Below are positions 13,811-54,449 of a DNA stretch of 64,000 nucleotides, piece after piece (positions within the stretch are counted from its first letter, which is position 1; every line of letters begins with the position of its first letter). The stretch is from Fibrobacteria bacterium. GTDB taxonomy: Bacteria > Fibrobacterota > Fibrobacteria > UBA5070. The position numbers were made by a program, and so were the translations under genes. The notes below the pieces were generated by a model that made no database searches, was not told where the DNA came from, and worked only from the letters and a program-made list of their open reading frames with translations. The DNA lies in NCBI GenBank assembly GCA_035352895.1, contig DAOPYN010000010.1, forward strand, positions 24,188 to 88,187. The letters are read 5' to 3'.

Positions 13811-14767
13811 TTGAGTCGATCCAGCTTGATTTCCTGGTGGCAGCGGAGTCGATACCTTCGACAGGTTGCCAAGGCGATCGATTCCACGGTGGCCCCTCCC
13901 CCACGGGCCCAGCCCCTCCTGAGCGGTCCCGGCGTGGTTCTGGTCCCCTTCGACCCCGTCCATGCCGCCCTTGCCAATCCATTCATCCAGGACCTTTGCC
14001 AGACCCTGGAAGGGCCCATCCGCCTTGCCGGCCCCGTATCCAGCCTGCGATGGTCACCGGAAACCTCCCTGCCCCCCATCGAAATCCCGCTTGGGCTTTC
14101 CCCGAAGTCGTTCCGGGAATGGCTCGAATACCACAGGGCCCATCGAACCGACTGGTGCCTCCTGGTTTCCAGATCCCCTTCTCCACTGGAGGAGGCATGC
14201 CTCGCTTGGCTGGGGTCGGGCGCCAGGATCGCCTCCCTGGATGCATGCCTGTCGAGTGCTGCCAACGTCAAGTTGCAAACCCAGCCGGAAGGCTCCTTCG
14301 AGCTCCATCTTCGCCGGACCCTGCGCACCGTGCTGACCGGTTTTCCCCATGGAATCGTGGCCGACCGTCCCAAATCCGGCCCCCGGGTCCTGGAGATCCC
14401 ACCTTCGCTTCCGGAAACAGGGGGACGCACGAAGGCCTTCGTGGAGCAGATCACCCGGTTGGCCACCTCCCAACCCCTCCTGCTGGCGCACTCGGAAAAT
14501 CTTCCCGAACTGATCGCGGACACCGTCCGCAGCCTGGGCCCCCGCATCGCACTGGTCCATTTGCAGGCGGCGAAGGACGTCCAGGAACTGGCGAAGCGTT
14601 CCAGTGTCTTCGTTGGCGTGCGCTCCCCGGCCACCGCTTTGGCCGCCCTCGCGGGGTGCCCGGTCCGTCTGATCGGAGCTTCCGAGGATGCTCTGGACTA
14701 TCCGTCGGAAGGTGTCCAAGTGGTTTCCCTAAAAATCCTTAGGCAAGAATTGGACGAATCGGTGTAG
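13811..14767 (+). CDS. hypothetical protein, weak glycosyltransferase family 9 (heptosyltransferase)-like C-terminus
   Basis: 318-aa ORF with genome-typical codon usage. The C-terminal VFVGVRSPATALAALAGCPVRLIG resembles the GT9 donor-binding motif. Competing minus-strand ORFs look low-complexity. Confidence 0.4.
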   Translation: MSRSSLISWWQRSRYLRQVAKAIDSTVAPPPRAQPLLSGPGVVLVPFDPVHAALANPFIQDLCQTLEGPIRLAGPVSSLRWSPETSLPPIEIPLGLSPKSFREWLEYHRAHRTDWCLLVSRSPSPLEEACLAWLGSGARIASLDACLSSAANVKLQTQPEGSFELHLRRTLRTVLTGFPHGIVADRPKSGPRVLEIPPSLPETGGRTKAFVEQITRLATSQPLLLAHSENLPELIADTVRSLGPRIALVHLQAAKDVQELAKRSSVFVGVRSPATALAALAGCPVRLIGASEDALDYPSEGVQVVSLKILRQELDESV

Positions 14768-14780
14768 ATTTGGCCCTCCA

Positions 14781-14853
14781 CGGGATGTAGCTCAACTGGT
14801 AGAGTGCCTGCTTTGGGAGCAGGTGGTCGCACGTTCGAATCGTGTCATCCCGA
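14781..14853 (+). tRNA. tRNA-Pro (anticodon TGG)
   Basis: Cloverleaf drawn by hand: acceptor CGGGATG/CATCCCG, D-arm GCTC..GAGT, anticodon stem CCTGC/GCAGG with loop TTTGGGA (anticodon UGG, G37), T-arm GCACG-TTCGAAT-CGTGT, discriminator A. Confidence 0.85.
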
Positions 14854-14917
14854 CTCCGGAGCAGGAAGTTCTACTCTTTCCTTCCTGTCCCGGCCCTTCA
14901 CCCCCTTAGGAGAACCC

Positions 14918-15535
14918 ATGGCTGCCAAGGAAGAATCGGTCATCCTCAAATACCTGAAGAAGAACCCCGGATCCGAAGCGCTGGACATCTCGTTCGGTAC
15001 CGACATCGACGAATCCGTGGTGAAGGAAACCCTCCAGCAGCTCTTGGGCAAGCAGCAGGTTTCCGAAGCCGTCAGCGAATCCGGCATTTCCACCTGGTCG
15101 ATCGCCGCTCCTCCTCCGCCGGCCCCCAAGGTGGCGGCTCCCAAGCCCCAGCCGGCCCCCAAGCCGGTCAGCGAGGATGCTCCCACCGACGACAGCGACG
15201 ATTCCGACAGCGACGAGGGTTCCAGCTCCAAGGGTGGAGTCGGCAAGGGCTTCGTCATCTTCATCGCCTTGCTGTTCGCCGCCATCGGTGCCGGCGCCTC
15301 GTTCTTCATGGTCCAGGGCTCCATCAGCGCCGCCAAGGCCGATATCGTGAAGGCCAAGGGCGAGCTGCAGGATTCCGTTGGTGTCTTCAAGCTGGCCACC
15401 AACAACCGCATCTCCGCGATGGAGCAGGAGATCAAGTTGCTGAAGGCTCCTCCCGCCGAGGAGAAGGCCGACGACGCCAAGGCCGCCAAGAAGGCCACCA
15501 AGCCCGTTGTCAAGAAGGGCAAGAAGGGCAAGTAA
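14918..15535 (+). CDS. hypothetical single-pass membrane protein (N-terminal winged-helix-like region, Pro-rich and acidic linkers, coiled coil, Lys-rich tail)
   Basis: ATG 14918 preceded by AGGAGA. Contains MAAKEESVILKYLKKNPGSEALDISFGTD..., the TM segment GFVIFIALLFAAIGAGASFFMV, and the C-terminal KAAKKATKPVVKKGKKGK. The ORF track extends upstream over tRNA-Pro, which is unlikely to be real. Confidence 0.55.
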   Translation: MAAKEESVILKYLKKNPGSEALDISFGTDIDESVVKETLQQLLGKQQVSEAVSESGISTWSIAAPPPPAPKVAAPKPQPAPKPVSEDAPTDDSDDSDSDEGSSSKGGVGKGFVIFIALLFAAIGAGASFFMVQGSISAAKADIVKAKGELQDSVGVFKLATNNRISAMEQEIKLLKAPPAEEKADDAKAAKKATKPVVKKGKKGK

Positions 15536-15613
15536 GCGGGTCGCCCGATCTTTCCGGTCGACGCCCTCTCCGAGCGCCTCGTCGCGACCTACCGCGACGG
15601 GGCGCATCTTGTT

Positions 15614-17872
15614 TTGAAAGCCCCCACCGGCTCGGGCAAGAGCACGCGGGTTCCACGCCACCTCCTGGAGGCGGGTATCCGGGGCCGGATCTGGGTGATC
15701 CAGCCCCGCAGGTTGGCTGCCCGCAGCGTAGCCAGATGGGTGGCCAAGCAGCTGGGCGAGGAATTGGGCGGCAGGATCGGCTACCACGTCCGGTTCGATC
15801 GAACCGAATCGGAGCGGACGGAAGTCCTGTTCTTGACGCCGGGTGTCGCCCTGCGCATCGCCTCGTCATCCCAAGGATTTTCGGGGGTCTCGGCGATCCT
15901 GCTGGACGAATTCCATGAACGGTCCGCCGAAACCGACGCGCTGGCAGCGCTGGCATTGGCCTCCGGCAGACAAGGACCACTGGTCTGGTTGTTGTCGGCC
16001 ACGGTGGATCCGGAAGAACTGCGGACATGGCTTTCCAGCGGTTCGCGTCCTGTCCAGGTCCTCGAAAGCCAGGGGCGGATGTACCCCGTCCAGATCGAAT
16101 ACCGCCCCATGCCCGGCAATCTGCAGCTTGCCGATTCCATGGCCAACGCAGTTCGCGAACGCCTGCGCCAAGGCGTGGATGGCGATCTTCTCTGCTTCGT
16201 CCCCGGAGTGGGAGAGATCCGTCGGACCATCGAGTTGCTTTCCCGAACCCCACTTCCCACGCCGCTTCGAACCCGTCTCCTGAGCCTCCATGGCGACATG
16301 GAGCCATCCGAACAGGACGCAGCGCTGGCGGAAGCCCCTCCCGGATGCGTGAACATCGTGGTGGCCACCAATGTGGCGGAAACGTCCCTGACCCTTCCAG
16401 GAGTCCGGCACGTACTGGATTCCGGCTATGTCCGTTCGGCACGATTCGATCCGCGTCGCGGACTGGACACCCTCTACACGATCCGCGCGAGCCGTCGCAG
16501 TGCCGACCAGCGGGCCGGACGCGCCGGACGCGTCGCCGCGGGAACCTGCTGGAGATTGTGGTCGGAATCCGACATCCCCCCCCAAGACGAACTCCCGGAA
16601 ATCCTCCGCATCGACCTCGCTTCCCTCTGGCTGACCCTGGCGGCCTTCGAACGCTCCCCCGGGAACTTCCCCTGGCCCACCCCGCCCTCGGAAGAACGGA
16701 TCCGATCGGCTTGCGGACTCCTGACCATGCTGGGAGCCTTGTCCCCTTCGGGAGACGTGACCGATCTTGGCAAACGCATGTCCCGGATGCCGGTGTCGCC
16801 CCGCACCGCCAGGGTGCTGCTGGAGGCTCGACGGCTGGGGGGATCCCCGCAGGCCTTGCGGTGGGCGGCCGCCTGGGAATCGCAGGGGCCACGCGACGAG
16901 GACCTCCTGCGAAGAAGCCTGGAGGAGTTCGTCAGGGGCGCTCCGGGTCGAGAAGTCCCGCTGGGTAGACTCCTGCTTTCCGCTTTCGCCGATCGCTTGG
17001 CCGTCCAGGCCTCGCCCGACCGGTGGCGTCTGAACGACGGACGGGTCTGCGAGGGAAGCGTCGGCGGTGAAACCCAGCTTTGTCTGGCTCTGGAAGTGCA
17101 GGAAACCGCCAATGCGCAGCGAGGCACCAGCCTTCGCTTGCGGGAGGCGGAGCCCGTGGAGACCTCCTGGGTGGAGGACGCCTTCCCTGGACGGATCCGC
17201 ACCTCGGTCGAGGTGGACTGGGATCCACGCAATCGTCGGGTGCACGCGCGCGAGGTGGTCCGCTTGGCCGACCAGAGCCTGTGGTCGCGTCCGGTGGACG
17301 ACAACCGGATTCCTCGGCTGCAGGCCGAACAGCTCCTGTCCAGCAAGATCGCCCAGGGGGAGATCCGATGGAAGTGGGGCGAGGAGGAGGACCTTTGGGT
17401 CCTCCGGTCGCGCCTGGTGGCCAAGGCCTTCCCGGAACGTGGACTGTGCACCTTCGAGGAGGAGGATCTGGAACTCGCGCAAGCGGGAATCGTCGAAGGG
17501 TGCCTGGCCGCGGCGGGAGTGGAAAACCGCGAAGTGCTTCCCTATCTCAAGGAAGTCCAGGGGCACGAGCAGGTGCAATTCGTGGAAAAGATGGCTCCCC
17601 TCGGGATCGGATTGGCTTCCGGAAGGAAGGCGCGGGTCGCTTACCAAACCGACGGTTCCGCCCTGGTCTCGGCCCGGATCGGGGATTTCATCGGGGTCAA
17701 GCAGGAGTCGGTGCGGATCGGGCAGGGCAGGATTCCCATGGTGTTCGAGATCCTGGCCCCCAACCACCGTCCCGTCCAGCGCACATCCGATCTGGACGGA
17801 TTCTGGCAGAGATCCTACCCCCAGATCAAGGCCGACCTGAAACGCCGCTACCCCAAGCATCCCTGGCCCTGA
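15614..17872 (+). CDS. hrpB: ATP-dependent RNA helicase HrpB (DEAH-box)
   Basis: Walker A APTGSGKST, DEFHER, and the HrpB C-terminal domain. The coordinate is the TTG start from the ORF track. The conserved N-terminal homology (PIFPVDALSERLVATYRDGAHLVL) continues upstream to about 15548 with no ATG/GTG/TTG (see findings). Confidence 0.85.
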   Translation: MKAPTGSGKSTRVPRHLLEAGIRGRIWVIQPRRLAARSVARWVAKQLGEELGGRIGYHVRFDRTESERTEVLFLTPGVALRIASSSQGFSGVSAILLDEFHERSAETDALAALALASGRQGPLVWLLSATVDPEELRTWLSSGSRPVQVLESQGRMYPVQIEYRPMPGNLQLADSMANAVRERLRQGVDGDLLCFVPGVGEIRRTIELLSRTPLPTPLRTRLLSLHGDMEPSEQDAALAEAPPGCVNIVVATNVAETSLTLPGVRHVLDSGYVRSARFDPRRGLDTLYTIRASRRSADQRAGRAGRVAAGTCWRLWSESDIPPQDELPEILRIDLASLWLTLAAFERSPGNFPWPTPPSEERIRSACGLLTMLGALSPSGDVTDLGKRMSRMPVSPRTARVLLEARRLGGSPQALRWAAAWESQGPRDEDLLRRSLEEFVRGAPGREVPLGRLLLSAFADRLAVQASPDRWRLNDGRVCEGSVGGETQLCLALEVQETANAQRGTSLRLREAEPVETSWVEDAFPGRIRTSVEVDWDPRNRRVHAREVVRLADQSLWSRPVDDNRIPRLQAEQLLSSKIAQGEIRWKWGEEEDLWVLRSRLVAKAFPERGLCTFEEEDLELAQAGIVEGCLAAAGVENREVLPYLKEVQGHEQVQFVEKMAPLGIGLASGRKARVAYQTDGSALVSARIGDFIGVKQESVRIGQGRIPMVFEILAPNHRPVQRTSDLDGFWQRSYPQIKADLKRRYPKHPWP

Positions 17873-18012
17873 ACGGTATTTTCGTCCCGTCGAGGCGGTT
17901 TCGGTGCTATTTTCCGCGATGGCGTTTCCGACCGCCCGACCGCGATCGGGACCGTTTCGGACCGATCGCGGAGAACCGCGCCATCCAAACACCCTCGCGA
18001 AAGGACCCCCAG

Positions 18013-18207
18013 ATGGGAAGCCACGGAAAGTGCTGGCTGTTCACCAACGGCGACGACGGAAATTGCTACTAGTGCTACTGCAACAAGTACTCCGACGACA
18101 TGGAAAAGGAGTTCAAGCGCCAGGTGTACTCGCGATCCGGCTACGCCTGCCGCAAGGTGCATCGCTACGACCACACCCCCGACCGCGGCTACGAACTGTT
18201 CGTGTGA
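18013..18207 (+). other. small Cys-rich ORF interrupted by in-frame TAG (MGSHGKCWLFTNGDDGNCY-TAG-CYCNKYSDDMEKEFKRQVYSRSGYACRKVHRYDHTPDRGYELFV)
   Basis: ATG 18013 preceded by AAAGGA. GC3-rich codon usage persists on both sides of the amber codon at 18070-18072 up to TGA 18205-18207. No homolog recognised. Confidence 0.3.
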
Positions 18208-18217
18208 GTCTGAGATA

Positions 18218-18256
18218 GGTGTCCGGAAGCGGTCCAAGGAACGCCTCCGGACACCC
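18218..18256. terminator. stem-loop (14-bp stem, 1 mismatch) between convergent small ORF and Ala/Lys-rich gene
   Basis: ggtgtccggaagcg ... cgcctccggacacc inverted repeat. No clear T-tract. Confidence 0.4.
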
Positions 18257-18262
18257 ACCGGC

Positions 18263-18811
18263 TCATGCCGTTCCGATGATCTTGGAGACCCCCAGTATGG
18301 AGGCCAACCTGGAATCCACGGCTTTCATTCCTGCATCCTCCTTCTTGGGAGCAGACTTGGCGATGCTCGCCTGGGCTTCGGCACTTAGTTTGGGAGCCTC
18401 GGTTTTCCCCCGCGCATCGGACAGGACGTTCTGCAAGGGGTCGGCCTTGGTCGCGGCGGCGGCCTCCGCCTTTCGGGCCTTGGCTGCGGTCTCGAAGTAG
18501 TTCTGGACCTCATTGGCGTTGGCGGCGGCAAGGTCGAGGGTGCGGGTTCCCGTCCCGCTGGCCATCGGAGACATCTTGGCTTTCAGGCTTTGTGCCACCA
18601 CATAGGCCTTGGCCTGGCTTGCTGTGGCCTGGGCTTGAGATGCCCCCTTGGGGTCGGACTTGGCCGCAGCGGCGGTTGCATCCTTCCCGGATTGACCGGA
18701 TGCCGTCTTGGTCGCTTCTGCCGACGCTTGCGCGCCTTCGGCCGCCTTGGGTGGTGTCACGGTTTTAGGCGCGGTGATCTCGCGGATCAGTTTGATTGGA
18801 TCGGTTGGCAT
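18263..18811 (-). CDS. Ala/Lys-rich low-complexity hypothetical protein (histone-H1/AlgP-like composition)
   Basis: ATG 18811 with a GGGGGGG RBS. Product MPTDPIKLIREITAPKTVTPPKAAEGAQASAEATKTASGQSGKDATAAAAKSDPKG... is 182 aa. The ORF track entry is longer through an upstream extension. Confidence 0.5.
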   Translation of the reverse strand: MPTDPIKLIREITAPKTVTPPKAAEGAQASAEATKTASGQSGKDATAAAAKSDPKGASQAQATASQAKAYVVAQSLKAKMSPMASGTGTRTLDLAAANANEVQNYFETAAKARKAEAAAATKADPLQNVLSDARGKTEAPKLSAEAQASIAKSAPKKEDAGMKAVDSRLASILGVSKIIGTA

Positions 18812-19003
18812 ACAGGTCCCCCCCTTGAACGGATTTCCCCGATATCTGTTGTCGACCGAACTGTCGTAGGACTTTAGTCTTTTTTCGCGAAAACTCTCCA
18901 GGACCATGGCGTTTCCCACGTCCTCTTCTCTTGGCCCTTTCGCCCCCACTTCCCCTCGTCTTGCGCCCTGCGAGCTAGCTTCCCAAGCCAGGAGATCCGC
19001 ACC

Positions 19004-19579: not shown

Positions 19580-21025
19580 CTAGGGAAGCTTCTTGGTCTG
19601 CATGGAGGACCATTGTCCGCTGCAGAAGGCGCAGGTGTTCCCGATGAACTTCTGACGACCGGTGGAGCCGGTGTCCCCTTTCAGCCACCAGTTGAACCAG
19701 GCCACCGCGAACTTCGCGAATTCCCCTCCGTTGTCCGCCCAGTAGGTTCCCCCGTGGCCGGCGCTGGGAACGTTGGCGAACACCGTGGGCAGGTGAGCGA
19801 TCCCGTTGAAGTCGCGCAGACCATTGGGGTAGGCGATGTCGTCCGGGCCACCGATCGCGTAGGCGATGGGCGCATGGAGCTTGTTGAGGGTGGACTGGTC
19901 GGGGCTCAGGAGACCGCTGCTCATGATGATGGTGGCGTCCACCCGCGGATCCAGGGAGGCTCCATAGGCCATGATGCCTCCGCAAGACCAGCCGAACGAA
20001 CCGACCATGGTATCCAGGCTCTGGTAGAAGCGGCTGCAGGGCTTGCCGTTCTGCTGGAGCGCCCAATCGAAGCCCTTGATGAGGTACCCGCCCAAGGTGC
20101 CCAGGCCGGAGCCCATGTCATAGCTGCCCGATCCTCCGGGAGTCCCCTCGTTGATCACGATGAATCCATGAGAGGCGATCTCGGCATAGAAATCGGCGGT
20201 TTCCGTGGAATTCCTGCCGCACCCTCCATTCCCCCAAACCAGGATGGGGTACTTCTTACCCGCGCCCAAATCGCTGGGGCGGTAGATGGTCTTGCCCGAC
20301 AGGCTGGGATCGGTTTCGATCACCACCTGGTGGGAACCGGTCAGGGGACTCCCCCCCAACGAGGCGTTCACCTTCACAGGGTCCGGCCCCTTGTCGGCGG
20401 GATTGCAGGTGGCCAGCGCGCTCAGGGTCACGTCCACGGTCCCTTCGTAGCTGGACAGGGGGACGGTCTTGGAGACATATCCGTTCGCGGACACCTTCAA
20501 GGAATCCACCACGGCCAGGGACCGGGCGGAAACCCCGCGATCGACCGGCTGCGAAGCCAGGAGCCGTCCCTCGCCGGTCCGGACCATCCGGAAGGTGGAG
20601 GTCCGGTCGCCAAGACCCACGCGAACCAGGAGCATGGTCGCCGACAGCGAGACCTTGGAGGCATCGAACGAGAAGAGGCCTGCGGGAGCGTTCCTTTCCA
20701 CCGCGGCAAGGCGATTCCCGGAAAGATCCAGCCAATCGATGCTCACATGGGTCGGCACCGCGAGCTCGGCGGTCAGGACTCCGCCGACCATCGAGAGCGA
20801 ACCGGGAAGATCGGATCGATCCAGGATCCCGTTGGTCCCTCCGGTCAGGGAATAACCTCCGCTCGCATCGGTCGTGGCCTTCAGGGACTTCGAATCCAAA
20901 GCCACGGTGGCACCCGAGATGGGGCTTCCAGCGTCGCTCTTGACGGTCCCATTCAGTGCAATGGTCTGGGCCCCGACATCGAGGCCTAGGATCAGGAAAG
21001 CGCAAAGGGATACGGATGGGCGCAT
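19580..21025 (-). CDS. secreted alpha/beta-hydrolase (esterase/lipase-like) with N-terminal carboxypeptidase-regulatory-like domain
   Basis: Signal peptide MRPSVSLCAFLILGLDVGAQ, then a CarboxypepD_reg-like segment (GTVKSDAGSPISGATVALDS...DASGGYSL). Hydrolase core YPILVWGNGGCGRN...FGWSCGG (G-x-S-x-G nucleophile). Confidence 0.7.
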   Translation of the reverse strand: MRPSVSLCAFLILGLDVGAQTIALNGTVKSDAGSPISGATVALDSKSLKATTDASGGYSLTGGTNGILDRSDLPGSLSMVGGVLTAELAVPTHVSIDWLDLSGNRLAAVERNAPAGLFSFDASKVSLSATMLLVRVGLGDRTSTFRMVRTGEGRLLASQPVDRGVSARSLAVVDSLKVSANGYVSKTVPLSSYEGTVDVTLSALATCNPADKGPDPVKVNASLGGSPLTGSHQVVIETDPSLSGKTIYRPSDLGAGKKYPILVWGNGGCGRNSTETADFYAEIASHGFIVINEGTPGGSGSYDMGSGLGTLGGYLIKGFDWALQQNGKPCSRFYQSLDTMVGSFGWSCGGIMAYGASLDPRVDATIIMSSGLLSPDQSTLNKLHAPIAYAIGGPDDIAYPNGLRDFNGIAHLPTVFANVPSAGHGGTYWADNGGEFAKFAVAWFNWWLKGDTGSTGRQKFIGNTCAFCSGQWSSMQTKKLP

Positions 21026-23550: not shown

Positions 23551-23554
<4 letters not shown>

Positions 23555-25689
23555 CCCTGCACTCCGATCTTCTTCTGAAGGCCGCCCAGAACCTGGAGGA
23601 GGTTGGCGCGGACATGGATGAATTCGTCGATTCCCGAGGCCTTGTGGGCTTCGACCTGGTCGGCGGGGAAGCCCGCCAGGACCACGGCCACTCCGGGGAT
23701 CGCCGCCTTGAGGGCCGGCACGATCTGGGGGACCAGTTCGGGATAGGTGTCGTCGGTGCTGCAGATGGTGACCACCTTGGCGCCGGAATCCGTCGCCGCG
23801 TCCACCATGTCCTTCACCGAAGCGAAACCTTCCGGGTACACCACTTCGAATCCGCCGACTTCGAAGAATCCGCGGGAGAAGTCGGCGCGGCCCTTGTGCT
23901 GCGCCAGGGGCCCCATGGTCGCCAGGAAGACGCGCGGACGCCAGCCGGTGCGGACCAGATGGCGATCGGCGGCATCGCGCAGCTTCTCGAAGGGCTCCGA
24001 CAGGCGGTGGAGCTTGAGCGGCTGGATGGTCGGACGGTCGGCGTCGCCGGCGCGGATCACGCGGGTGATCTCGCCCAACGTGGCTCCGGCCTGGACGGCC
24101 TCGATCGCGGCCGCGACCATCTTCTCGTCGGTGACACCCATGAGATCGGACAGCTTGCCCATGACCTTGGAGTGCTTCACGTCGTCGTAGGCGGTGCGGT
24201 ATTCGGTGACCGACACCACGCGCGACTTGTAGATCGCGGCGTAGTCGGGCTTGCGGCCCTCGATCTTCTTTTCGCCGATGTTGGCGTACTGGTTCACGCC
24301 CACCTGGACGTCCTTGCGGGTGGCCAGAGCCGATTCCTTCGCCTTGCAGACCTTTTCGATCTCGGACTGGATGAACCCGGCCTGGAGAGCGGCGAAAGCT
24401 CCGCCCTTTCCTTCCACGGCCTGGAAGAGTTCCCAGGCCTTCTGGGCGATCTGGTCGGTGAGCCATTCCACGGCCCACGATCCACCCGCGGGATCCACCA
24501 CGTGGCGCAACTGGGCTTCCGTGGCCAGGAGGATCTGGGTGTTGCGGGCGATGCGGCGGGAGAACTCGTCCGGAAGTCCGAAGACCTCGTCGAACGGGGT
24601 CACCTGCAGCGACTGCACGCCGCCCAGCACCGCCGAGAAGCTCTCGGTGGTGGTGCGCAGGAGGTTCGCGTAGGGATCCAGCTTGGACTTGTTCCACAGC
24701 GCCGTACGGGCGTGGATGCTCATGCTCTGCGAGCACATGTTCCCGCCGAAGGCTTCCACGATGCGGCTCCACAACAGGCGCGCTGCGCGGAACTTGGCGA
24801 TTTCCATGAAGAAGTTGGGACCCACGCTGAAGGCGAAGCGCATGCGGGGAGCGACGGTGTCCACCGCCACGCCGCGCTTGACCAGCTCGCGGATGTATTC
24901 GGCGCCCTGGGAGAGGGCGAAGGCCAGTTCCTGCACGGCGCTGCCGCCGGCTTCCAGGAAGGAACGCGAGTGGACGCACACGGTCTGCAGCGCCGGAGCT
25001 TCGCGCTCGGCCCACAGGGTGAGCTGGGCCATCTCGCGATAGGCCTCGTCCAGGGACTGGGGAAGGGTGCCTTCGTGGGCGAGCACGCCCAGCGGATCCA
25101 TCTCGATGCATCCGCGCAGCTTCCTGACATCCAGTCCGCGGCTCTTGACCAGGGCGGCCAGCAGGGCGGCGAAGGGAAGTCCGGAGGCTCCCGAGCGGAC
25201 GAACAGCGAGGTCTTCTCCAGGTCGATGTCTTCCAGCGCGACGGAGAGATCCTTGATGGTGGCGATGCTGACGCCGCCCTTGCCCACGTCGCCCTCGACG
25301 GCGGAATCGGGATCGATGCCGGCGCGCGTGGCGTGGTCGAGGTTCAGGTTCAGCGCCGTGAGGCCACGCGACAGATCGTGTCTGGCGGCCTGGTTGAACT
25401 CGCGGGGTCCCGGATAGGGCAGCTCCTGCGAAACCTCCCAGGCCTCGGCGACGTAGCCTTCGTGCGAAGACCCGCGCGCCAGCTGGCCGCAACCGGGCTT
25501 GGCCTTCAGGTGTTCCAGGCCGGCCACGTCGGAGGCGTTGTAGATGGGCTGGACGGTGATGCCTTCGTAGGTGCCGGAGACGAGCTTCTTCTCGTAGGGC
25601 ACGCCCTTGAGTTCGGCTTCGACCTGGGCCTTCCACTTGTCGAAGGGAACCTCCGCGAATTCGGAGAGCAGCTTGGGTTTGTCGGTCAT
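23551..25689 (-). CDS. mutA: methylmalonyl-CoA mutase small (beta) subunit
   Basis: 712 aa, [20 protein letters not shown]..., typical MutA. Its degenerate B12 domain ends ...[19 protein letters not shown]. Confidence 0.9.
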
Positions 25690-25693
25690 CGGA

Positions 25694-48569: not shown

Positions 48570-51500
48570 TCAGGGAGCGCGCTTGTATCCGACCTTGAAC
48601 AGCTTGTTCTGGATCATGACCCGAACGTTCACGCCGTTGACCGACTGCTGGCTGTACGAAACCAGCCGCAGCATGTACACGCCCGTTGCCAACCGGCCCT
48701 TCTCGCCACCCATGCCGTTGAGGGAAAGCAGCACGGCGTATTTGCCGTTGCTTGCCACCATTCCCTCGGCGGCCAGACTGTCCCGGTCGAGCTTGAGGTC
48801 CTGCTTCCCGACGAACACTCCCAGGTTGTCGTAGGCGAGAACCTGACCGTCGAACGAAGTATTCAGTTCCACGCGCACGCCGAAGAGCCCCGTTGCCACC
48901 GCCACCGAATCCAACGATCGGAGATTGGACGCTCCGGTGCTGGACACGGGTTTGGCCTGACCGCTCCACGAGGTGGGCAGCACCCAGACGCTCAATGGAG
49001 GCAGAAGGCGCGTGGGCTTGTCCAACCCGTCGTCGACGAACACGGGCTGGGGGAAGACCGACGCCTTGTAGCGGACCGGATAGGGACCGGTAAGGACGGG
49101 AACCTTGAGGGACACATCGCCCACCGCGTTTCCAACGGCATCCTGCAAGCCCTTCGACAGACGTGCGCTGTCCCCGAAGGCTGGCAGGCCGTAGGTGGTG
49201 ACCCCGTCGGTGCAGCTGTCGCAGATCACCAGTAGGCGCGTTCCCTGGACGATGATGTGGGCCTTGGGATCCGTCGGAAGGAAAGGCTTCTGTTCCCCCC
49301 TGCGAATCACGTCGAAGAGGAACGACGGGACCGGCGCATCCTTCAGTGGCTCGGAAAGGACCAACGCGATGGTGTCGGCCGCTCCTTCCACCTGTCCGTA
49401 GGATACGAACACCGACTGGAGGACCGGAGCGATGCCATCGAGAACCACGAACGGCTGCGGCTCCAGGGGGGTGCCGTCGACGATGCTCGTGGATGTCCCC
49501 GTTCCGTTGCCGGAGGTCTTGCCCGCGGGGAATCCCGCCACGGGAATGATCGCCTCGGTGAGCCCCACCAGTCGCTTGCCGTACCCGACGCTGTCCACGG
49601 TCACGGTCACCCCCTGCCAGGTGAAGCCGAAGGTCGGGGAACCCAGCAACGGACGCTTCCAGGCCAGGCGCACGGCATCGGCCGTTCCATCGCCGTTCTG
49701 GTCCAGGATCCGCGCGGTGTCGGGAGCGCGATCGCCACCCGCCACAGGCACGTACGGAGCGGCGCCGGAAGACGCCGGGAGTTGATCGGAAGAGACCGCC
49801 CGCAGGACGGATCCCGTGATGGCCATGCGCACCAGATCGCCCGGCTCCACGCTGCCGACGGGGATGTCGAAGGTTCCGACATTCGCCCCCGCCCCGCTTG
49901 CCGGGATGGTCGTGGCGGTCGCGGGAATCGGCTCGTCGCCGGCGGCGGTCTTGCGGACCAGGTAGACCGTTTGCCCCGGGCGAAGCCCCGACACCACCGG
50001 TTCGGAGAAACGAACGGTGAGCTTGTCGGAGCCCGCGGCGAATTCGAGCTTGGCCACACCGATGGCGACGGGAGGAACCGAGTCGCGAAGATCGTAATCC
50101 TCGCGGCGCATGGATCCCTGGAGCAAGGTCAGCTTGCCCATCCCGTTGAGTCCCGTTCCCACGGTCAGTCCCGCGGCGATGTTCACGGGCAGCTGGTAGG
50201 TCGCATTGCCCAGCGACACGGCCTGCGCCCAGGAATAGGTGGAATCGACGGTCTGGATCCAACTGCCGACCACGATCTTGTCCGGAGCTTCGGCAGGTTT
50301 GCGGAATTCCCGACGGAAGACCATGGTGACCACATCGGCACGACCGTCGCCATCGCGATCGGAAAGCCAGGAATCGACGATGGGAACGGCGATCGGCTGC
50401 AGGACGATCTGGGCGGTATCTCCACCGCATTCGCTGTAGCGTCCCGGATTGCCCGCGGCGTCGACGATTCCCGACGCGGTGGCGATCGCGATGCGCGCAC
50501 CTTCGGCCACGGCTCCGGCGGCATTGCCCTGGACCACGAACACGAGGTCGGTGGTCCCGTTGCCGGAAACCACCTGGGCGGGCATCGGCGATGCGGGAGT
50601 GGTTTCCACGCCTCCGAGGAAGGTGCGGAAAGGCAGAGTGGTTCCCGCGAAGGTGACCGGCTCGCTGAAGCGGACCTTCAAGGTGTCGGTTCCCGGAGTG
50701 GTGTTTTCCACGATGGTGGCCAGGATCGGCCGAGGCCCGATCCCGTCGGAGACAGGAACGTAGGAACCATCACCCAGGACCACCTGGGTGTCTTCCGCCG
50801 GCGGACGGCGCAACGAAGCCACCACGCGGACCTCGGCGAGCGGAATCCAGGCGGGAAGTTTGGCCAGGCTCGCCCCCAGGGAAATTCCCAAAGCGGTGTT
50901 CCCTGCCAGAGGATGGATCTTCGTGGAATCCAGAGACACCGTGTCGGCACCCAGTCGGAACACCACCCGGCTCAGGCGGACCTTGGATGTATCCAGAACC
51001 GCGACGCGCACGGATCCCCCCAGAGGCTTGAACAGGATCACAGTGGAATCCGCCGACCCGTCGCAATCCTTGTCCAGGAACACGCCATTGGCGGGTTCCG
51101 GGGCATCCGGCTTGGGAGGCAGACGGAACGTGACGGGTTTGAAGAGGGCCTGCACGCCGTTTCCGATCCACGGATGCGATGCCTTCAGGGTGTCGTTGGT
51201 CAGCGGCACATCGGACCGAACCCACAGGTCCAGGACTCCGGCCACCAGGGTCGCCGAATCCAGGGCAGTCGTAGAGGTGGCCGTGGCGTAGAACTTGGTC
51301 CCGGCGACCGATTTGAGGGTCACCGTCGCACCCGACCAGGAATCCGTGGCGTCCGGAACGGTTCCGTTCTTGGAGAGGATCAGGTGGACGGGCATGGCCA
51401 CCGTGATGAACGTGTCGATCTTGGAATCCGGCACGAACCAGAGTTGAGCACGCGGCTTGCCCACCTTCATGAGGGCGGAATCGATGACCGTCTTCCCGTT

Positions 51501-54269
51501 CACGTTGGCGAAGCCCCAGAACTTGTGCCCCTCCGTCCCCTCCACGAAGTGGTAGAGGGAGACAAGACCCGTGGCATCGCTCTTGACCTGCGTGGCGGTG
51601 AAGGGGCCCGTGGCGGCGGCGGCATACCCTTGCCGGAGGATTCCGGGATCGATCGCCTGGTACCCCAGGACCACATCGGCGATGGTGTCCACCTTGTTGC
51701 CGAACTTGTCCACCACCTGGAGCGTGATGGGGGTGGGCGCCTGATCCATGATGGTGGCGATGGAATCCTTGGGCCGGGTCTGGTCCACATACATCCAATC
51801 CGGCGGATTCTGCCAGATCACCTTCTCGGGCAGACCCGGGCGGACGTTGATCACCCCGGCACCAGGCACCGGAAGAGTACCGACCATTCCGGAAAGGGAA
51901 ACCGTGACAGTCCCGGTCTGGGTGAACCTCACGTTGAACGACCCGATTCCTCCTGAGAGGTTCTTCCCGATGGTGTCGCCGGACATCACCTGCTTGTCGG
52001 CAGGGAGCAGGAACATGTTCTTGTCGGGGGTCGCGGCGAGAACATCGATGGTGGGGATGCTCGAATTGTTGTCCGTCCGACGGCCCACCACACGCATGTA
52101 GACCGGCTCTCCCACCCGCACGGACGAGACCGTGTCGGTACCCGTCGCGGAACGGGTGAAGTACACGTCCAGTTTGTATTGGGTCTGCCGCCAGATCCAA
52201 ACGCCCACGTTGGACTTGGTGGGCTTGCCGTCCACCTCGCCCTTGACCACCAGATCGAACCTGGCGAACGAATCCACCGGAGCGGTGGGAAGCGATGCCT
52301 TGAAGATGCCGCAGGAATTGGCTGCGGGCTTGGTGCCCGTGTTGGTCAGCTTGACCGGAGTCGGGAACGCGGGAGTGGGAATGTCGCCGTTGGGCCCTTC
52401 CTTGGTCAGCGAAATGGTCCTGTAGTAGCTCGCCAGTTCGAATTCCAAGTCGGAGGCGGTTCCATTGGCTTCCAGGCAGTACTGGAACGAAACCGTCTTC
52501 GCGGTCTTGTCCAAGGTGACGATGAACTGGTCCTTGAGAAGCAGCGGCGAAATCAGACCGTCACCGGCCTCGGAAACCGCACCTCGATCCACCATGGAGC
52601 CATCCATGTCGCGGTTGCCGGCAGCCACCCACCCCTTGTCGAAGACCGTGGAGTCCACGATCGCCGAATCCCATTGCGGAACCAGGAAGCCGGGATTTCC
52701 AGGAGTGGTGCTCTTGAAGGGGAACTTGCGGACCCAATAGTTGGCCTGTAAGGAAATGTCGATGTTCGCGGTCGCGTTCGTGCCGGCCCCCTTGACGTAC
52801 CGGATGCGCCCGCCCTGGTGGAAGAAGTCGGCGTTCTGGGGGTTGGTCGCCTCGTAGGGATTCCCCTTGTAGATCCCGGTGTAGTTGGCACCCTGCCCGA
52901 CATTCCATCCGTTCCAGATCCACTGACCCTTCACACCCTGGATCACGGAAACCGGCTTGTCCCAGGTGAGGTAGCAGGGAGGCGCCTGGTTGACCGTGGC
53001 GCAGACCGCCGCATCTTGGACAGGCCCCGATTGCTCGCTTTGGATCTGGTAGAGGGAATCCCCCTCGCCCACCTCGAAGGTGTTGTTGTACAGGAAGTCC
53101 TTGTAGTACTGCAGGTATTGGCGGCCATCCTTGACCATCCGGGCATTGATGCCCTTTCGGTTGAAGTTGGTGACCAGGTTGTTGTAGAAATAGTGCTGGA
53201 CTCCCGGCTTGAAATAACTGTTGGCGAACACCATCACGGAGCCGTTGATCGTGTTGTTGTAGATCTTGTGCGGAACGATGCGGACGTCCTTCAGGTACAT
53301 GAATCCGCCGGTCATGTTGTTGGATTCGGCCGAGGAGTCCGTGTTCTGGGCGAACTGGGTGTTGTAGTTCTGGTCCATCAGGTTGTAGCGGATGGTGGAT
53401 CCGATGTCCCATTCCATCTCGTTGTAGATCACAAACCAGTTGTTGTGGACGTAGTTGCGCTCGATGAGGTGGTCGCCCATCTTCCCGAACCGCGAATAGG
53501 GGACGATGGTCTTCACGTCCAGATCGTTGGGATTGGGCGCGGCGAAGGCACCACCGACGTTGCGGTTCTGGATGTACATGGCGGCGAAGCAATTGCGGAT
53601 CTCCGTGTTGCGCACCACCACCTTCTTGGACTGGAAGAGGTTGATGCCCACGTTTCCGAAGAAGACGTCCCACTTGTCGTCCCAGATCCCATTGTTGACG
53701 AAGGTGGTGGGCTTCTTGCCATCGATGTGGATGCCTTCGATGAGGATGTTGGTGGACTTGTAGACCACCACGTAGCCGTTGTTCTGGAATCCGCTGGTGC
53801 TGTAGGGGTTCGCCGAGGCGCCGGTGTCGCCCGCTGCACCGGCACCACGTTGGCTGGAGCCCTTGACCGGCCATTTCTTCCAGCCGGCGGGACGCAGCGG
53901 ATCGGCGGGATTGGCCGCCGTTCCAGCGGCATTGAATTCGCTTGCGATGTTGACGTAGGTCAGCCGAGGCCGGATCTTCAGGGCGACCATCTGCGGGGAA
54001 GGCTGGATGGAAAGATTGTTCTTCTCCTCGATCCAAACTTCTCGACTGATGTTGTAGAGAGAGTCAGTGAGGACGATCTTGCATCCCGCGGCCGGACACG
54101 CGTTCACCGCGTTCTGGATGCTGGTGTAGGCTTGCCCCGCCCCGACGTTCATCTGGACCTGGGCCTGCAACTGGGCCGGAGCCAACAGGAGACCAGCGAT
54201 CCCTCCCCATAGGGAAAGGAGCTTCGTGTGGAAAACGAACTTGGTCGGACGGGGCAGATCCAGCAGCAT
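48570..54269 (-). CDS. giant secreted cell-surface protein (1899 aa): right-handed beta-helix (pectin-lyase-fold) N-terminal region, Ig-like/Ca-binding repeat array, conserved C-terminal sorting-like domain; paralog A
   Basis: Signal peptide MLLDLPRPTKFVFHTKLLSLWGGIAGLLLAPAQLQAQ. N-terminal region NACPAAGCKIVLTD...NPYSTSGFQNNGYVV...VRNTEIRNCFAAMYIQNRN with many N-N-T/YNN beta-helix rungs. DxDGDGxxD motifs. C-terminus ...GVYMLRLVSYSQQSVNGVNVRVMIQNKLFKVGYKRAP. Confidence 0.8.
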   Translation of the reverse strand: MLLDLPRPTKFVFHTKLLSLWGGIAGLLLAPAQLQAQVQMNVGAGQAYTSIQNAVNACPAAGCKIVLTDSLYNISREVWIEEKNNLSIQPSPQMVALKIRPRLTYVNIASEFNAAGTAANPADPLRPAGWKKWPVKGSSQRGAGAAGDTGASANPYSTSGFQNNGYVVVYKSTNILIEGIHIDGKKPTTFVNNGIWDDKWDVFFGNVGINLFQSKKVVVRNTEIRNCFAAMYIQNRNVGGAFAAPNPNDLDVKTIVPYSRFGKMGDHLIERNYVHNNWFVIYNEMEWDIGSTIRYNLMDQNYNTQFAQNTDSSAESNNMTGGFMYLKDVRIVPHKIYNNTINGSVMVFANSYFKPGVQHYFYNNLVTNFNRKGINARMVKDGRQYLQYYKDFLYNNTFEVGEGDSLYQIQSEQSGPVQDAAVCATVNQAPPCYLTWDKPVSVIQGVKGQWIWNGWNVGQGANYTGIYKGNPYEATNPQNADFFHQGGRIRYVKGAGTNATANIDISLQANYWVRKFPFKSTTPGNPGFLVPQWDSAIVDSTVFDKGWVAAGNRDMDGSMVDRGAVSEAGDGLISPLLLKDQFIVTLDKTAKTVSFQYCLEANGTASDLEFELASYYRTISLTKEGPNGDIPTPAFPTPVKLTNTGTKPAANSCGIFKASLPTAPVDSFARFDLVVKGEVDGKPTKSNVGVWIWRQTQYKLDVYFTRSATGTDTVSSVRVGEPVYMRVVGRRTDNNSSIPTIDVLAATPDKNMFLLPADKQVMSGDTIGKNLSGGIGSFNVRFTQTGTVTVSLSGMVGTLPVPGAGVINVRPGLPEKVIWQNPPDWMYVDQTRPKDSIATIMDQAPTPITLQVVDKFGNKVDTIADVVLGYQAIDPGILRQGYAAAATGPFTATQVKSDATGLVSLYHFVEGTEGHKFWGFANVNGKTVIDSALMKVGKPRAQLWFVPDSKIDTFITVAMPVHLILSKNGTVPDATDSWSGATVTLKSVAGTKFYATATSTTALDSATLVAGVLDLWVRSDVPLTNDTLKASHPWIGNGVQALFKPVTFRLPPKPDAPEPANGVFLDKDCDGSADSTVILFKPLGGSVRVAVLDTSKVRLSRVVFRLGADTVSLDSTKIHPLAGNTALGISLGASLAKLPAWIPLAEVRVVASLRRPPAEDTQVVLGDGSYVPVSDGIGPRPILATIVENTTPGTDTLKVRFSEPVTFAGTTLPFRTFLGGVETTPASPMPAQVVSGNGTTDLVFVVQGNAAGAVAEGARIAIATASGIVDAAGNPGRYSECGGDTAQIVLQPIAVPIVDSWLSDRDGDGRADVVTMVFRREFRKPAEAPDKIVVGSWIQTVDSTYSWAQAVSLGNATYQLPVNIAAGLTVGTGLNGMGKLTLLQGSMRREDYDLRDSVPPVAIGVAKLEFAAGSDKLTVRFSEPVVSGLRPGQTVYLVRKTAAGDEPIPATATTIPASGAGANVGTFDIPVGSVEPGDLVRMAITGSVLRAVSSDQLPASSGAAPYVPVAGGDRAPDTARILDQNGDGTADAVRLAWKRPLLGSPTFGFTWQGVTVTVDSVGYGKRLVGLTEAIIPVAGFPAGKTSGNGTGTSTSIVDGTPLEPQPFVVLDGIAPVLQSVFVSYGQVEGAADTIALVLSEPLKDAPVPSFLFDVIRRGEQKPFLPTDPKAHIIVQGTRLLVICDSCTDGVTTYGLPAFGDSARLSKGLQDAVGNAVGDVSLKVPVLTGPYPVRYKASVFPQPVFVDDGLDKPTRLLPPLSVWVLPTSWSGQAKPVSSTGASNLRSLDSVAVATGLFGVRVELNTSFDGQVLAYDNLGVFVGKQDLKLDRDSLAAEGMVASNGKYAVLLSLNGMGGEKGRLATGVYMLRLVSYSQQSVNGVNVRVMIQNKLFKVGYKRAP

Positions 54270-54449
54270 GGCGAACCTCTTCAGCGACGGCGACACGAAC
54301 GGTCTCGAACGACAGGGCCACGGCCTCCCTATGAAGGAAACGCGAAGCCACATAAAGATTTACCATGATTTTGGTCGCAGGAGGGGCGATTCTGGTTGAT
54401 TCCAGTGGCAAATCGTTCTCGCACGGAGCACGAACCACCCCTGAATCAC

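What the first reader, a model, noticed from the sequence alone, without database searches (positions are those of the whole stretch)
18013..18207. Cys-rich small ORF with an in-frame amber codon: possible readthrough, recoding, or a freshly inactivated peptide gene
Seen in sequence: ATG 18013 with an AAAGGA RBS encodes MGSHGKCWLFTNGDDGNCY, then TAG (18070-18072), then 44 more in-frame codons (CYCNKYSDDMEKEFKRQVYSRSGYACRKVHRYDHTPDRGYELFV) to TGA. The strong GC3 codon bias continues across the TAG, which argues that both halves are or recently were translated as one 64-aa Cys-rich (6 Cys), Tyr-rich polypeptide. It lies in a slightly lower-GC islet after hrpB. I do not recognise the family. Options: a sequencing error, a recent nonsense mutation, programmed amber readthrough, or two peptides where the second starts at the internal ATG (MEKEF...).
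Basis: seen in the sequence. Interest (0 to 1): 0.5.

Follow-up and report, generated by a model that had tools for sequence, protein, structure and literature searches.

The report
Nonsense-mutated small protein gene
This is a real 64-codon gene for a rare, unnamed small protein in an uncultured Fibrobacteria bacterium, and a single G-to-A change has turned a conserved tryptophan codon into a stop, so it is an ordinary, recently broken gene rather than a case of recoding.

Summary
In detail: ATG 18013, in-frame TAG 18070-18072, 44 more codons, TGA 18205-18207. The only slip is that there are 5 Cys, not 6.

The ORF is a genuine gene. About 45 homologous clusters exist among 5.8 billion proteins. 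Nearly all are stand-alone proteins of 61-79 aa, and none matches Pfam, NCBIfam, PHROGs, PADLOC or PDB. Three related Fibrobacteria species keep the gene downstream of hrpB, with a Shine-Dalgarno site, a terminator hairpin and dN/dS of about 0.17.

All 37 aligned homologues have an aromatic residue at the TAG position (W 27, Y 9, F 1). The syntenic orthologues have TGG there. A protein identical to the window's product but with W comes from a 95-kb contig of the same population.

The TAG is not a base-call error. It is present in 12 loci from 10 samples, in two haplotypes.

TAG is an ordinary stop elsewhere in the window. There is no suppressor tRNA in the window, no stimulatory RNA structure and no TadA editing motif. 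The internal ATG is not conserved.

Verdict: a recent TGG-to-TAG nonsense allele that is still polymorphic in the population. Low interest. The untouched small-protein family is the only mildly new item.

The parts
18000..18005 (+). Shine-Dalgarno-like AAAGGA, 7 nt upstream of the ATG
   Evidence: Read in the sequence. A GA-rich SD sits at the same place in the orthologues L001 (GAGAGGA) and L025 (GAAAGGA), and in distant members L015 (AGGAG) and L016 (GAGGA).
18013..18069 (+). Codons 1-19 of the small-protein gene (strand beta1, the turn and the start of beta2 in the model)
   Evidence: Translation. Against L001, dN/dS is 0.02 over these codons. The family profile matches across the stop with E = 1e-31.
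18070..18072 (+). Premature amber codon TAG, derived from TGG (Trp20) by a G-to-A transition at 18071
   Evidence: The orthologues L001 and L025/L026 have TGG. The P0001 allele has W. The position is W/Y/F in 37 of 37 homologues. TAG is present in 12 loci from 10 samples.
18073..18207 (+). Codons 21-64 and the TGA stop, now stranded downstream of the nonsense codon
   Evidence: Translation. dN/dS is 0.30 against L001. Aligned to the family. The model places the rest of beta2, the helix 28-42 and strands 50-52 and 60-62 here.
18100..18207 (+). The 35-aa ORF (MEKEF...) that gene callers annotate in place of the broken gene; an annotation artefact
   Evidence: It is P0003, called in 8 of the assemblies. 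Met30 is not conserved (3 of 37; Lys in L025). No SD is visible upstream.
18218..18255 (.). Strong hairpin between the convergent genes, a likely bidirectional terminator
   Evidence: -27.1 kcal/mol, z = -3.5. Hairpins of different sequence follow the stop codon in L001 (z = -3.4) and L025 (z = -2.2).
17940..17971 (+). 5'-leader hairpin CCGCGATCGG-N12-CCGATCGCGG; conserved in position, role unknown
   Evidence: Folding. The GTTTCG loop and GATCG stem block are kept in L001 and L025, with a change consistent with pairing (TCGG/CCGA against TCAGG/CCTGA). The whole-leader z-score is not significant (-1.4).
15614..17872 (+). hrpB (DEAH-box helicase), the syntenic upstream neighbour in the Fibrobacteria orthologues
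   Evidence: Pfam HrpB_C, Helicase_C, HA2_N and DEAD. Synteny in L025/L026, and probably in L001.
18263..18907 (-). Convergent downstream gene (Ala/Lys-rich, no Pfam match), the syntenic neighbour
   Evidence: Gene calls, no Pfam hit. A gene of 188 aa in L025 and one of 158 aa in L001 occupy the corresponding position on the opposite strand; their sequences were not compared.

Best explanation
Positions 18013-18207 hold a bona fide monocistronic gene for a 64-aa cytosolic protein. The protein belongs to a rare, unannotated family. Its predicted fold is beta-hairpin, alpha-helix, two beta-strands. In this uncultured Fibrobacteria population a single G-to-A transition at 18071 changed the Trp20 codon TGG to TAG. 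Trp20 lies in the middle of strand beta2, at a position that is aromatic in every homologue. Ribosomes starting at ATG 18013 therefore terminate after 19 residues, and the remaining 44 codons are untranslated remnants apart from background misreading. The allele is a recent loss-of-function variant. It is common (10 samples, two haplotypes) but still polymorphic, because an otherwise identical TGG allele exists in the same population. What is shown: the gene is real and conserved, TGG is ancestral, the TAG is real DNA, and TAG is a normal stop in this window. What is inferred: termination actually occurs at the TAG, and function is lost. The biochemical role of the intact protein is unknown. 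The best guess is a small protein-binding or regulatory factor, because it is stand-alone, has no conserved neighbours and has no enzyme-like features.
For: Only three direct hits came back: an identical 64-mer with W20 (P0001), an 80% identical 64-mer with W20 (P0002) and the truncated 35-mer. An exhaustive HMMER search and two profile searches define a family of about 45 clusters. Nearly all are 61-79 aa; there is one 101-aa call and one C-terminal fusion. Position 20 is W in 27, Y in 9 and F in 1. The orthologues L001 and L025/L026 have TGG at that codon, a Shine-Dalgarno site and a terminator hairpin; L025/L026 place the gene downstream of hrpB, and L001 has a matching gene layout. dN/dS is 0.17 (Fisher p = 3e-6) against L001 and 0.17 against L025. 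Parsimony on the window branch gives 9 synonymous changes, 4 missense changes and the nonsense change, so the lineage was under purifying selection until recently. TAG is present in all 12 conspecific loci, from 10 samples and different assemblers, in two haplotypes that are 99.9-100% identical to the window. The 95,481-bp contig recorded for the W allele is also the longest contig recorded for three neighbour proteins identical to the window's. TAG ends 8 of 33 crude ORFs, including gene-called ones at 13811-14767 and 19580-21025. The window holds only tRNA-Pro and tRNA-His. The AF2 model has pLDDT 84 and puts residue 20 inside strand 18-23.
Against: No expression or protein data exist, so some readthrough cannot be excluded. 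Tyr, a plausible near-cognate insertion at UAG, is the native residue at this position in 9 of 37 homologues. The TAG allele outnumbers the TGG allele by 12 loci to 1 and sits on two haplotypes, which is a little unexpected for a neutral or deleterious null. The strains are so similar (at most 0.17% divergence) that decay of the ORF after the mutation cannot be assessed. The DNA of the TGG contig could not be retrieved, so that allele is known only from its protein record.
Confidence: 0.82

Rival explanations
1. The TAG is leaky. Near-cognate tRNAs (Tyr, Gln, Trp) or a genomic suppressor read it through often enough to give functional full-length protein, so the allele is a hypomorph or a regulated form rather than a null.
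For: The family tolerates Tyr or Phe at this position (10 of 37). The TAG allele is the common one and the rest of the ORF is intact in all 12 loci.
Against: No homologue carries a stop there. There is no stimulatory structure around or after the TAG (z = -0.17). TAG is used as an ordinary stop in the window. There is no suppressor tRNA in the window. The intact ORF is uninformative, because the strains differ by at most 0.17%.
Confidence: 0.08
2. There are two separate peptides: a 19-aa N-terminal peptide and a 35-aa product starting at the internal ATG 18100.
For: Gene callers annotate the 35-aa ORF in 8 assemblies.
Against: Met30 is present in only 3 of 37 homologues and is Lys in the syntenic orthologue L025. 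No SD precedes ATG 18100. In the model both fragments would lack half of the four-stranded sheet. Codons 21-29, which lie between the TAG and the ATG, are conserved as coding sequence.
Confidence: 0.03
3. A-to-I mRNA editing of UAG to UIG, read as UGG (Trp), restores the ancestral protein at the RNA level.
For: An A-to-G change at 18071 would exactly recreate the ancestral Trp codon. TadA-dependent mRNA editing is documented in bacteria (PMC12255301).
Against: TadA needs YTACGAA in a stem-loop, and changing the +1 C abolishes editing (PMC12255301). The site here is CTAGTGC, which matches 3 of 7 positions and has G at +1. It is not in a stable hairpin. That paper's text never uses the phrase 'stop codon' (0 occurrences).
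Confidence: 0.02
4. The TAG is decoded by a dedicated system (pyrrolysine or a reassigned code).
For: None beyond the in-frame TAG itself.
Against: TAG terminates several gene-called ORFs in the window. Homologues have W/Y/F, not a conserved TAG. No tRNA-Pyl or tRNA-CUA is in the window. No other coding-like in-frame TAG exists in the 64 kb.
Confidence: 0.01
5. The TAG is a sequencing or assembly artefact.
For: One record (P0001) has W at this position.
Against: The same TAG is in 12 loci from JGI, ENA, NCBI and Logan records, some of which carry MEGAHIT- or SPAdes-style contig names, on two haplotypes.
Confidence: 0.01

Closest known systems
Ordinary nonsense (premature stop) alleles, or young pseudogenes, segregating in bacterial populations
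   Same: A single transition turns a conserved sense codon into a stop. Orthologues and a conspecific allele are intact. The rest of the ORF is still undecayed.
   Different: The null allele is the majority form across many metagenomes. The gene affected belongs to an undescribed small-protein family.
Pyrrolysine amber recoding (methylamine methyltransferases mtmB/mtbB/mttB; from general knowledge)
   Same: An in-frame TAG inside an otherwise conserved ORF.
   Different: In Pyl genes the TAG is conserved among homologues, and pylTSBCD are present. Here homologues have W/Y/F, TAG is a common stop, and no pyl components were seen in the window.
TadA-dependent A-to-I mRNA editing in bacteria (PMC12255301), and fungal stop-loss editing UAG to UGG (the latter from general knowledge)
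   Same: An A-to-I change at the middle base of UAG would recreate Trp, as happens in the fungal cases.
   Different: The bacterial editing motif YTACGAA in a hairpin is absent. Editing of a bacterial stop codon is not discussed in that paper.
Small phage or toxin-antitoxin-type binding proteins (T7 Gp2, T4 Dmd, ATfaRel2, phi29 p56)
   Same: Similar size and a compact alpha/beta architecture. They appear among the top fold matches.

Membership tests
Unnamed small-protein family (consensus GHGxCWLVANGDDGNKYW...KYSDAxETSFKA...) | Full-length match to the family profile | tested here: met
   hmmsearch of the A4 profile against the six-frame translation of the window gave E = 1.3e-31 over profile positions 1-62, running across the stop.
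Unnamed small-protein family (consensus GHGxCWLVANGDDGNKYW...KYSDAxETSFKA...) | Aromatic residue after the invariant Tyr19 | tested here: not met
   The window has TAG. All 37 homologues have W, Y or F. This is the lesion.
Nonsense allele / young pseudogene | Ancestral sense codon in orthologues and in a conspecific allele | tested here: met
   TGG in L001 and L025/L026. W in P0001.
Nonsense allele / young pseudogene | The stop is real in DNA, not an artefact | tested here: met
   12 loci, 10 samples, two haplotypes.
Nonsense allele / young pseudogene | No full-length product is made | not testable with these tools
   This needs proteomics or a reporter assay.
Programmed amber readthrough / pyrrolysine recoding | In-frame TAG conserved among homologues | tested here: not met
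   0 of 37 homologues have a stop at this position.
Programmed amber readthrough / pyrrolysine recoding | TAG rare as a terminator, or other genes carrying an in-frame TAG | tested here: not met
   TAG ends 8 of 33 crude ORFs, including gene-called ones. There is no other credible in-frame TAG in the window.
Programmed amber readthrough / pyrrolysine recoding | Suppressor or Pyl tRNA and pyl genes | tested here: inconclusive
   Only tRNA-Pro and tRNA-His are in the 64-kb window. The rest of the genome is not available.
Programmed amber readthrough / pyrrolysine recoding | Stimulatory downstream RNA structure | tested here: not met
   Folding 18040-18105 gives z = -0.17.
TadA A-to-I mRNA editing site | YTACGAA motif in a tRNA-Arg-like stem-loop | tested here: not met
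   The site is CTAGTGC with G at +1, and there is no hairpin. The motif is taken from PMC12255301.
Cys-rich peptide (RiPP precursor, bacteriocin or zinc-ribbon-like) | Conserved cysteine pattern | tested here: not met
   C18 is found in 2 of 37, C21 in 4 of 37, C23 in 22 of 37, and C7 and C46 in 30 of 37 each.
Cys-rich peptide (RiPP precursor, bacteriocin or zinc-ribbon-like) | Adjacent modification or export genes | tested here: not met
   Neighbours differ between lineages: hrpB and a nucleoside deoxyribosyltransferase here; prepilin peptidase and FUSC, ketoacyl synthase, or a MACPF-like protein elsewhere.

The most novel reading that the evidence does not exclude
The amber allele is not a dead gene but a tuned one. 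Low-level or condition-dependent decoding of UAG could yield small amounts of functional protein. Candidates are near-cognate Tyr, which is native at this position in a quarter of the family, an unlinked suppressor, or an unconventional A-to-I edit. That would explain why the TAG allele predominates across many digester metagenomes while the ORF stays intact.
Probability: 0.07. Interest if true: 0.6.

Novelty: new member of a known kind. Interest (0 to 1): 0.2.

Why it matters
The main value is for annotation hygiene. Gene callers report a spurious 35-aa ORF here, and the true feature is a 64-codon gene with a premature stop. A secondary point is that the analysis uncovers a very rare, unannotated small-protein family. 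It has roughly 45 clusters among 5.8 billion proteins, is scattered over Fibrobacteria, Actinomycetota and Proteobacteria, and gives a confident predicted fold with no significant structural neighbour. That could interest people cataloguing bacterial microproteins. The TAG/TGG polymorphism offers a natural knockout/wild-type pair in one population if anyone wants to study the family's function.

Tried and rejected
- Rfam scan of 17700-18400 at E up to 10: only chance-level hits.
- Sigma-70 promoter scan: none found. The terminator scan missed the long-loop hairpin, which folding later revealed.
- The search for related loci with the two-sequence alignment in genome contigs and in metagenome contigs, and an exact DNA pattern with R at the variable base in metagenome contigs: all returned nothing. 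These collections evidently lack the relevant contigs.
- Retrieving the 95,481-bp TGG contig through P0001 or through neighbouring proteins: failed, because it is not in the position index.
- Pfam, NCBIfam, PHROGs, PADLOC and a PDB sequence profile search for the family: no meaningful hit. The Vps3844_C hit at 19.8 bits is below its cut-off and Cys-driven. The blaPOM and ATP synthase epsilon hits are chance-level.
- Conserved gene neighbourhood across the family: none found.
- Literature searches for family motifs and for the sample accessions: zero hits.

Full report
**1. Observation**

- AAAGGA lies at 18000-18005 and the ATG at 18013.
- Nineteen codons follow (MGSHGKCWLFTNGDDGNCY), then TAG at 18070-18072.
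- Forty-four further in-frame codons run to TGA at 18205-18207.
- GC3 is 0.79 before the stop and 0.91 after it, while GC2 is 0.47 and 0.36. The codon-position signal therefore crosses the TAG.
- The local GC dip (0.585-0.61) comes from low GC1/GC2, that is, amino-acid composition. GC3 is at host level, so there is no sign of foreign DNA.
- One correction: there are 5 Cys, not 6.
- A window-wide scan for single in-frame stops flanked by coding-like composition found only this site and one antisense artefact at 60939.

**2. It is a real gene**

A word-indexed search of 5.8 billion proteins returned three hits:
- P0001, a 64-mer identical to the window product except for W at position 20.
- P0002, a 64-mer 80% identical, also with W20.
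- P0003, the 35-aa fragment MEKEF... that gene callers annotate when the ORF is broken.

An exhaustive HMMER search of 1.84 billion representatives with a profile of P0001 and P0002 found seven more-distant members. Two further profile searches brought the family to about 45 clusters.
- Nearly all members are stand-alone proteins of 61-79 aa; one call is 101 aa.
- One cluster is a C-terminal fusion to an unannotated coiled-coil-like domain (P0006, 335 aa; P0044, 362 aa).
- Sources that name these proteins call them 'hypothetical protein'.
- There is no meaningful match in Pfam, NCBIfam, PHROGs, PADLOC or PDB sequences.

**3. Organism and orthologues**

Neighbouring proteins are identical to GenBank entries from a 'Fibrobacteria bacterium' TPA MAG (HNY30250-52). 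Two related species carry the same small gene.
- L025/L026 keeps the order hrpB, small gene, opposite-strand gene, nucleoside deoxyribosyltransferase-like gene. The short contig L001 shows the matching layout of a + strand gene end, the small gene and an opposite-strand gene.
- Each has a Shine-Dalgarno site and a strong hairpin right after the stop codon. The hairpin sequence differs in each species: window 18218-18255, -27.1 kcal/mol, z = -3.5; L001 z = -3.4; L025 z = -2.2.
- Both have TGG where the window has TAG.

Selection on the gene:
- dN/dS is 0.17 against L001 (17.8 synonymous and 18.2 non-synonymous differences; Fisher p = 3e-6) and 0.17 against L025.
- Both halves are constrained, at 0.02 for the N-terminal part and 0.30 for the C-terminal part.
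- With L025 as outgroup, the window branch carries 9 synonymous changes, 4 missense changes and the nonsense change. Purifying selection therefore acted for most of that branch, and the stop is recent.

**4. The residue hit**

In the 37-sequence alignment only Y19 and F34 are invariant. Position 20 is always aromatic: W in 27, Y in 9, F in 1. In the model it lies inside strand beta2. C18 occurs in 2 of 37, C21 in 4 of 37 and C23 in 22 of 37. Only C7 and C46 are common, at 30 of 37 each.

**5. The TAG is real and polymorphic**

Twelve conspecific loci all read TACTAGTGC, and the 195-nt ORF is otherwise identical in all of them. They come from:
- JGI 3300025867, 3300010352, 3300010355, 3300025855 and 3300019221
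- ENA ERZ27257449, ERZ27257431 and ERZ761564
- NCBI GCA_964455015.1
- Logan SRR4236661

They fall into two haplotypes that differ at 17877 and 17920 in the leader and are 99.8-100% identical to the window overall.

The W allele (P0001) is recorded on a JGI contig of 95,481 bp. That same length is the longest contig recorded for three neighbour proteins identical to the window's. TGG and TAG therefore coexist in one near-clonal population. The contig's DNA could not be fetched. With at most 0.17% divergence, about 0.2-0.3 further differences are expected in 195 nt, so the intact downstream half says nothing about selection since the mutation.

**6. Tests of the recoding alternatives**

- TAG is an ordinary terminator here. 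It ends 8 of 33 crude ORFs, including the 318-aa gene at 13811-14767, which is followed 14 nt later by tRNA-Pro, and the 481-aa PETase-like gene at 19580-21025.
- The window has only tRNA-Pro and tRNA-His.
- The RNA around the TAG has no unusual structure (z = -0.17).
- The site CTAGTGC does not fit the TadA editing motif YTACGAA. It has G at the critical +1 position (PMC12255301).
- The internal ATG 18100 is Met in only 3 of 37 homologues, is Lys in L025 and has no SD. The 'two peptides' idea has no support.

**7. Function of the intact protein**

The function is unknown. Neighbourhoods differ in every lineage examined:
- hrpB in Fibrobacteria
- prepilin peptidase and FUSC in L010-L013
- a ketoacyl synthase in L014
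- unannotated proteins in *Segeticoccus rhizosphaerae* (L015)
- a muramidase / MACPF-like cluster in a Sphingomicrobium MAG (L016)
- a two-component system for the fusion form (L029)

The protein has no signal peptide or hydrophobic segment (read directly from the sequence). The best guess, which is inference only, is a small cytosolic binding or regulatory protein.

**8. Verdict**

This is a recent TGG-to-TAG nonsense allele of a genuine small-protein gene. It is common but not fixed in an uncultured Fibrobacteria population. The finding itself is ordinary (interest about 0.2). The only modest novelty is the rare, unannotated protein family. A residual possibility of about 7% is that the amber allele is partly rescued by readthrough, because Tyr is acceptable at this position.

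Noticed in passing
window 15536-15613 (upstream of hrpB TTG 15614); L025 2531-2599: The first canonical start of hrpB (TTG 15614) puts the P-loop at residue 3. The 26 open codons upstream (AGRPIFPVDALSERLVATYRDGAHLVL) look like a normal HrpB N-terminus. In the related species L025 they are conserved with only synonymous differences, yet neither species has an ATG, GTG or TTG there. In the window they follow the TAA of the 205-aa gene directly and in the same frame; in L025 the frame differs. This suggests a non-canonical start codon, perhaps ATC 15548.
   Followed up: partly
window 17940-17971 (+): There is a ten-base-pair hairpin, CCGCGATCGG-N12-CCGATCGCGG, in the leader of the small gene. 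The GTTTCG loop and GATCG stem block are kept in L001 and L025, with a change consistent with pairing. With only three species and a whole-leader z of -1.4, no claim can be made. There is no Rfam hit.
   Followed up: partly
window 17905-17913 (+): A TGCTATTTT motif (TGTTATCTT in L025) is conserved about 100 nt upstream of the ATG. It could be an extended -10 promoter element for the small gene, or the T-tract of a weak hrpB terminator, which the scan flagged at 17888-17906.
   Followed up: no
L022 3867-6004 (JGI Ga0116247_10000445), corresponding to window about 23551-25690 (-): In the 83.6-kb conspecific contig the second MM_CoA_mutase-family gene, the one adjacent to the 725-aa mutase, is split into 322 + 418 aa. 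It is one 712-aa gene in L021, and the window has a single open frame there. This is either a frameshift allele or an assembly error in that contig.
   Followed up: no
window 13811-17872 (+): Three consecutive + strand genes (318 aa, 205 aa and hrpB) lie in the same reading frame. They are separated only by a TAG plus a tRNA-Pro gene, and then by a single TAA. This looks coincidental, because the tRNA lies between the first two and the frame differs in L025.
   Followed up: partly
window 48570-54359 (-) and 55322-61369 (-): Two very large adjacent ORFs of about 1,930 and 2,015 codons have high GC3. Their identity was not examined.
   Followed up: no
L016 979-6794 (Sphingomicrobium MAG): A distant member of the small-protein family sits inside a cluster that encodes an N-acetylmuramidase with a PG-binding domain, an Exo_endo_phos protein, several unannotated proteins and a 776-aa MACPF-like protein. 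This might be a toxin or effector island.
   Followed up: no
P0038 (ENA 199-kb contig) against P0005: P0038 looks like P0005 with a scrambled middle (KYEATATTTSFKAKVEQPVGLPVPHRPDDEY). This suggests frameshift errors or another decayed copy of the family in a long-read assembly.
   Followed up: no
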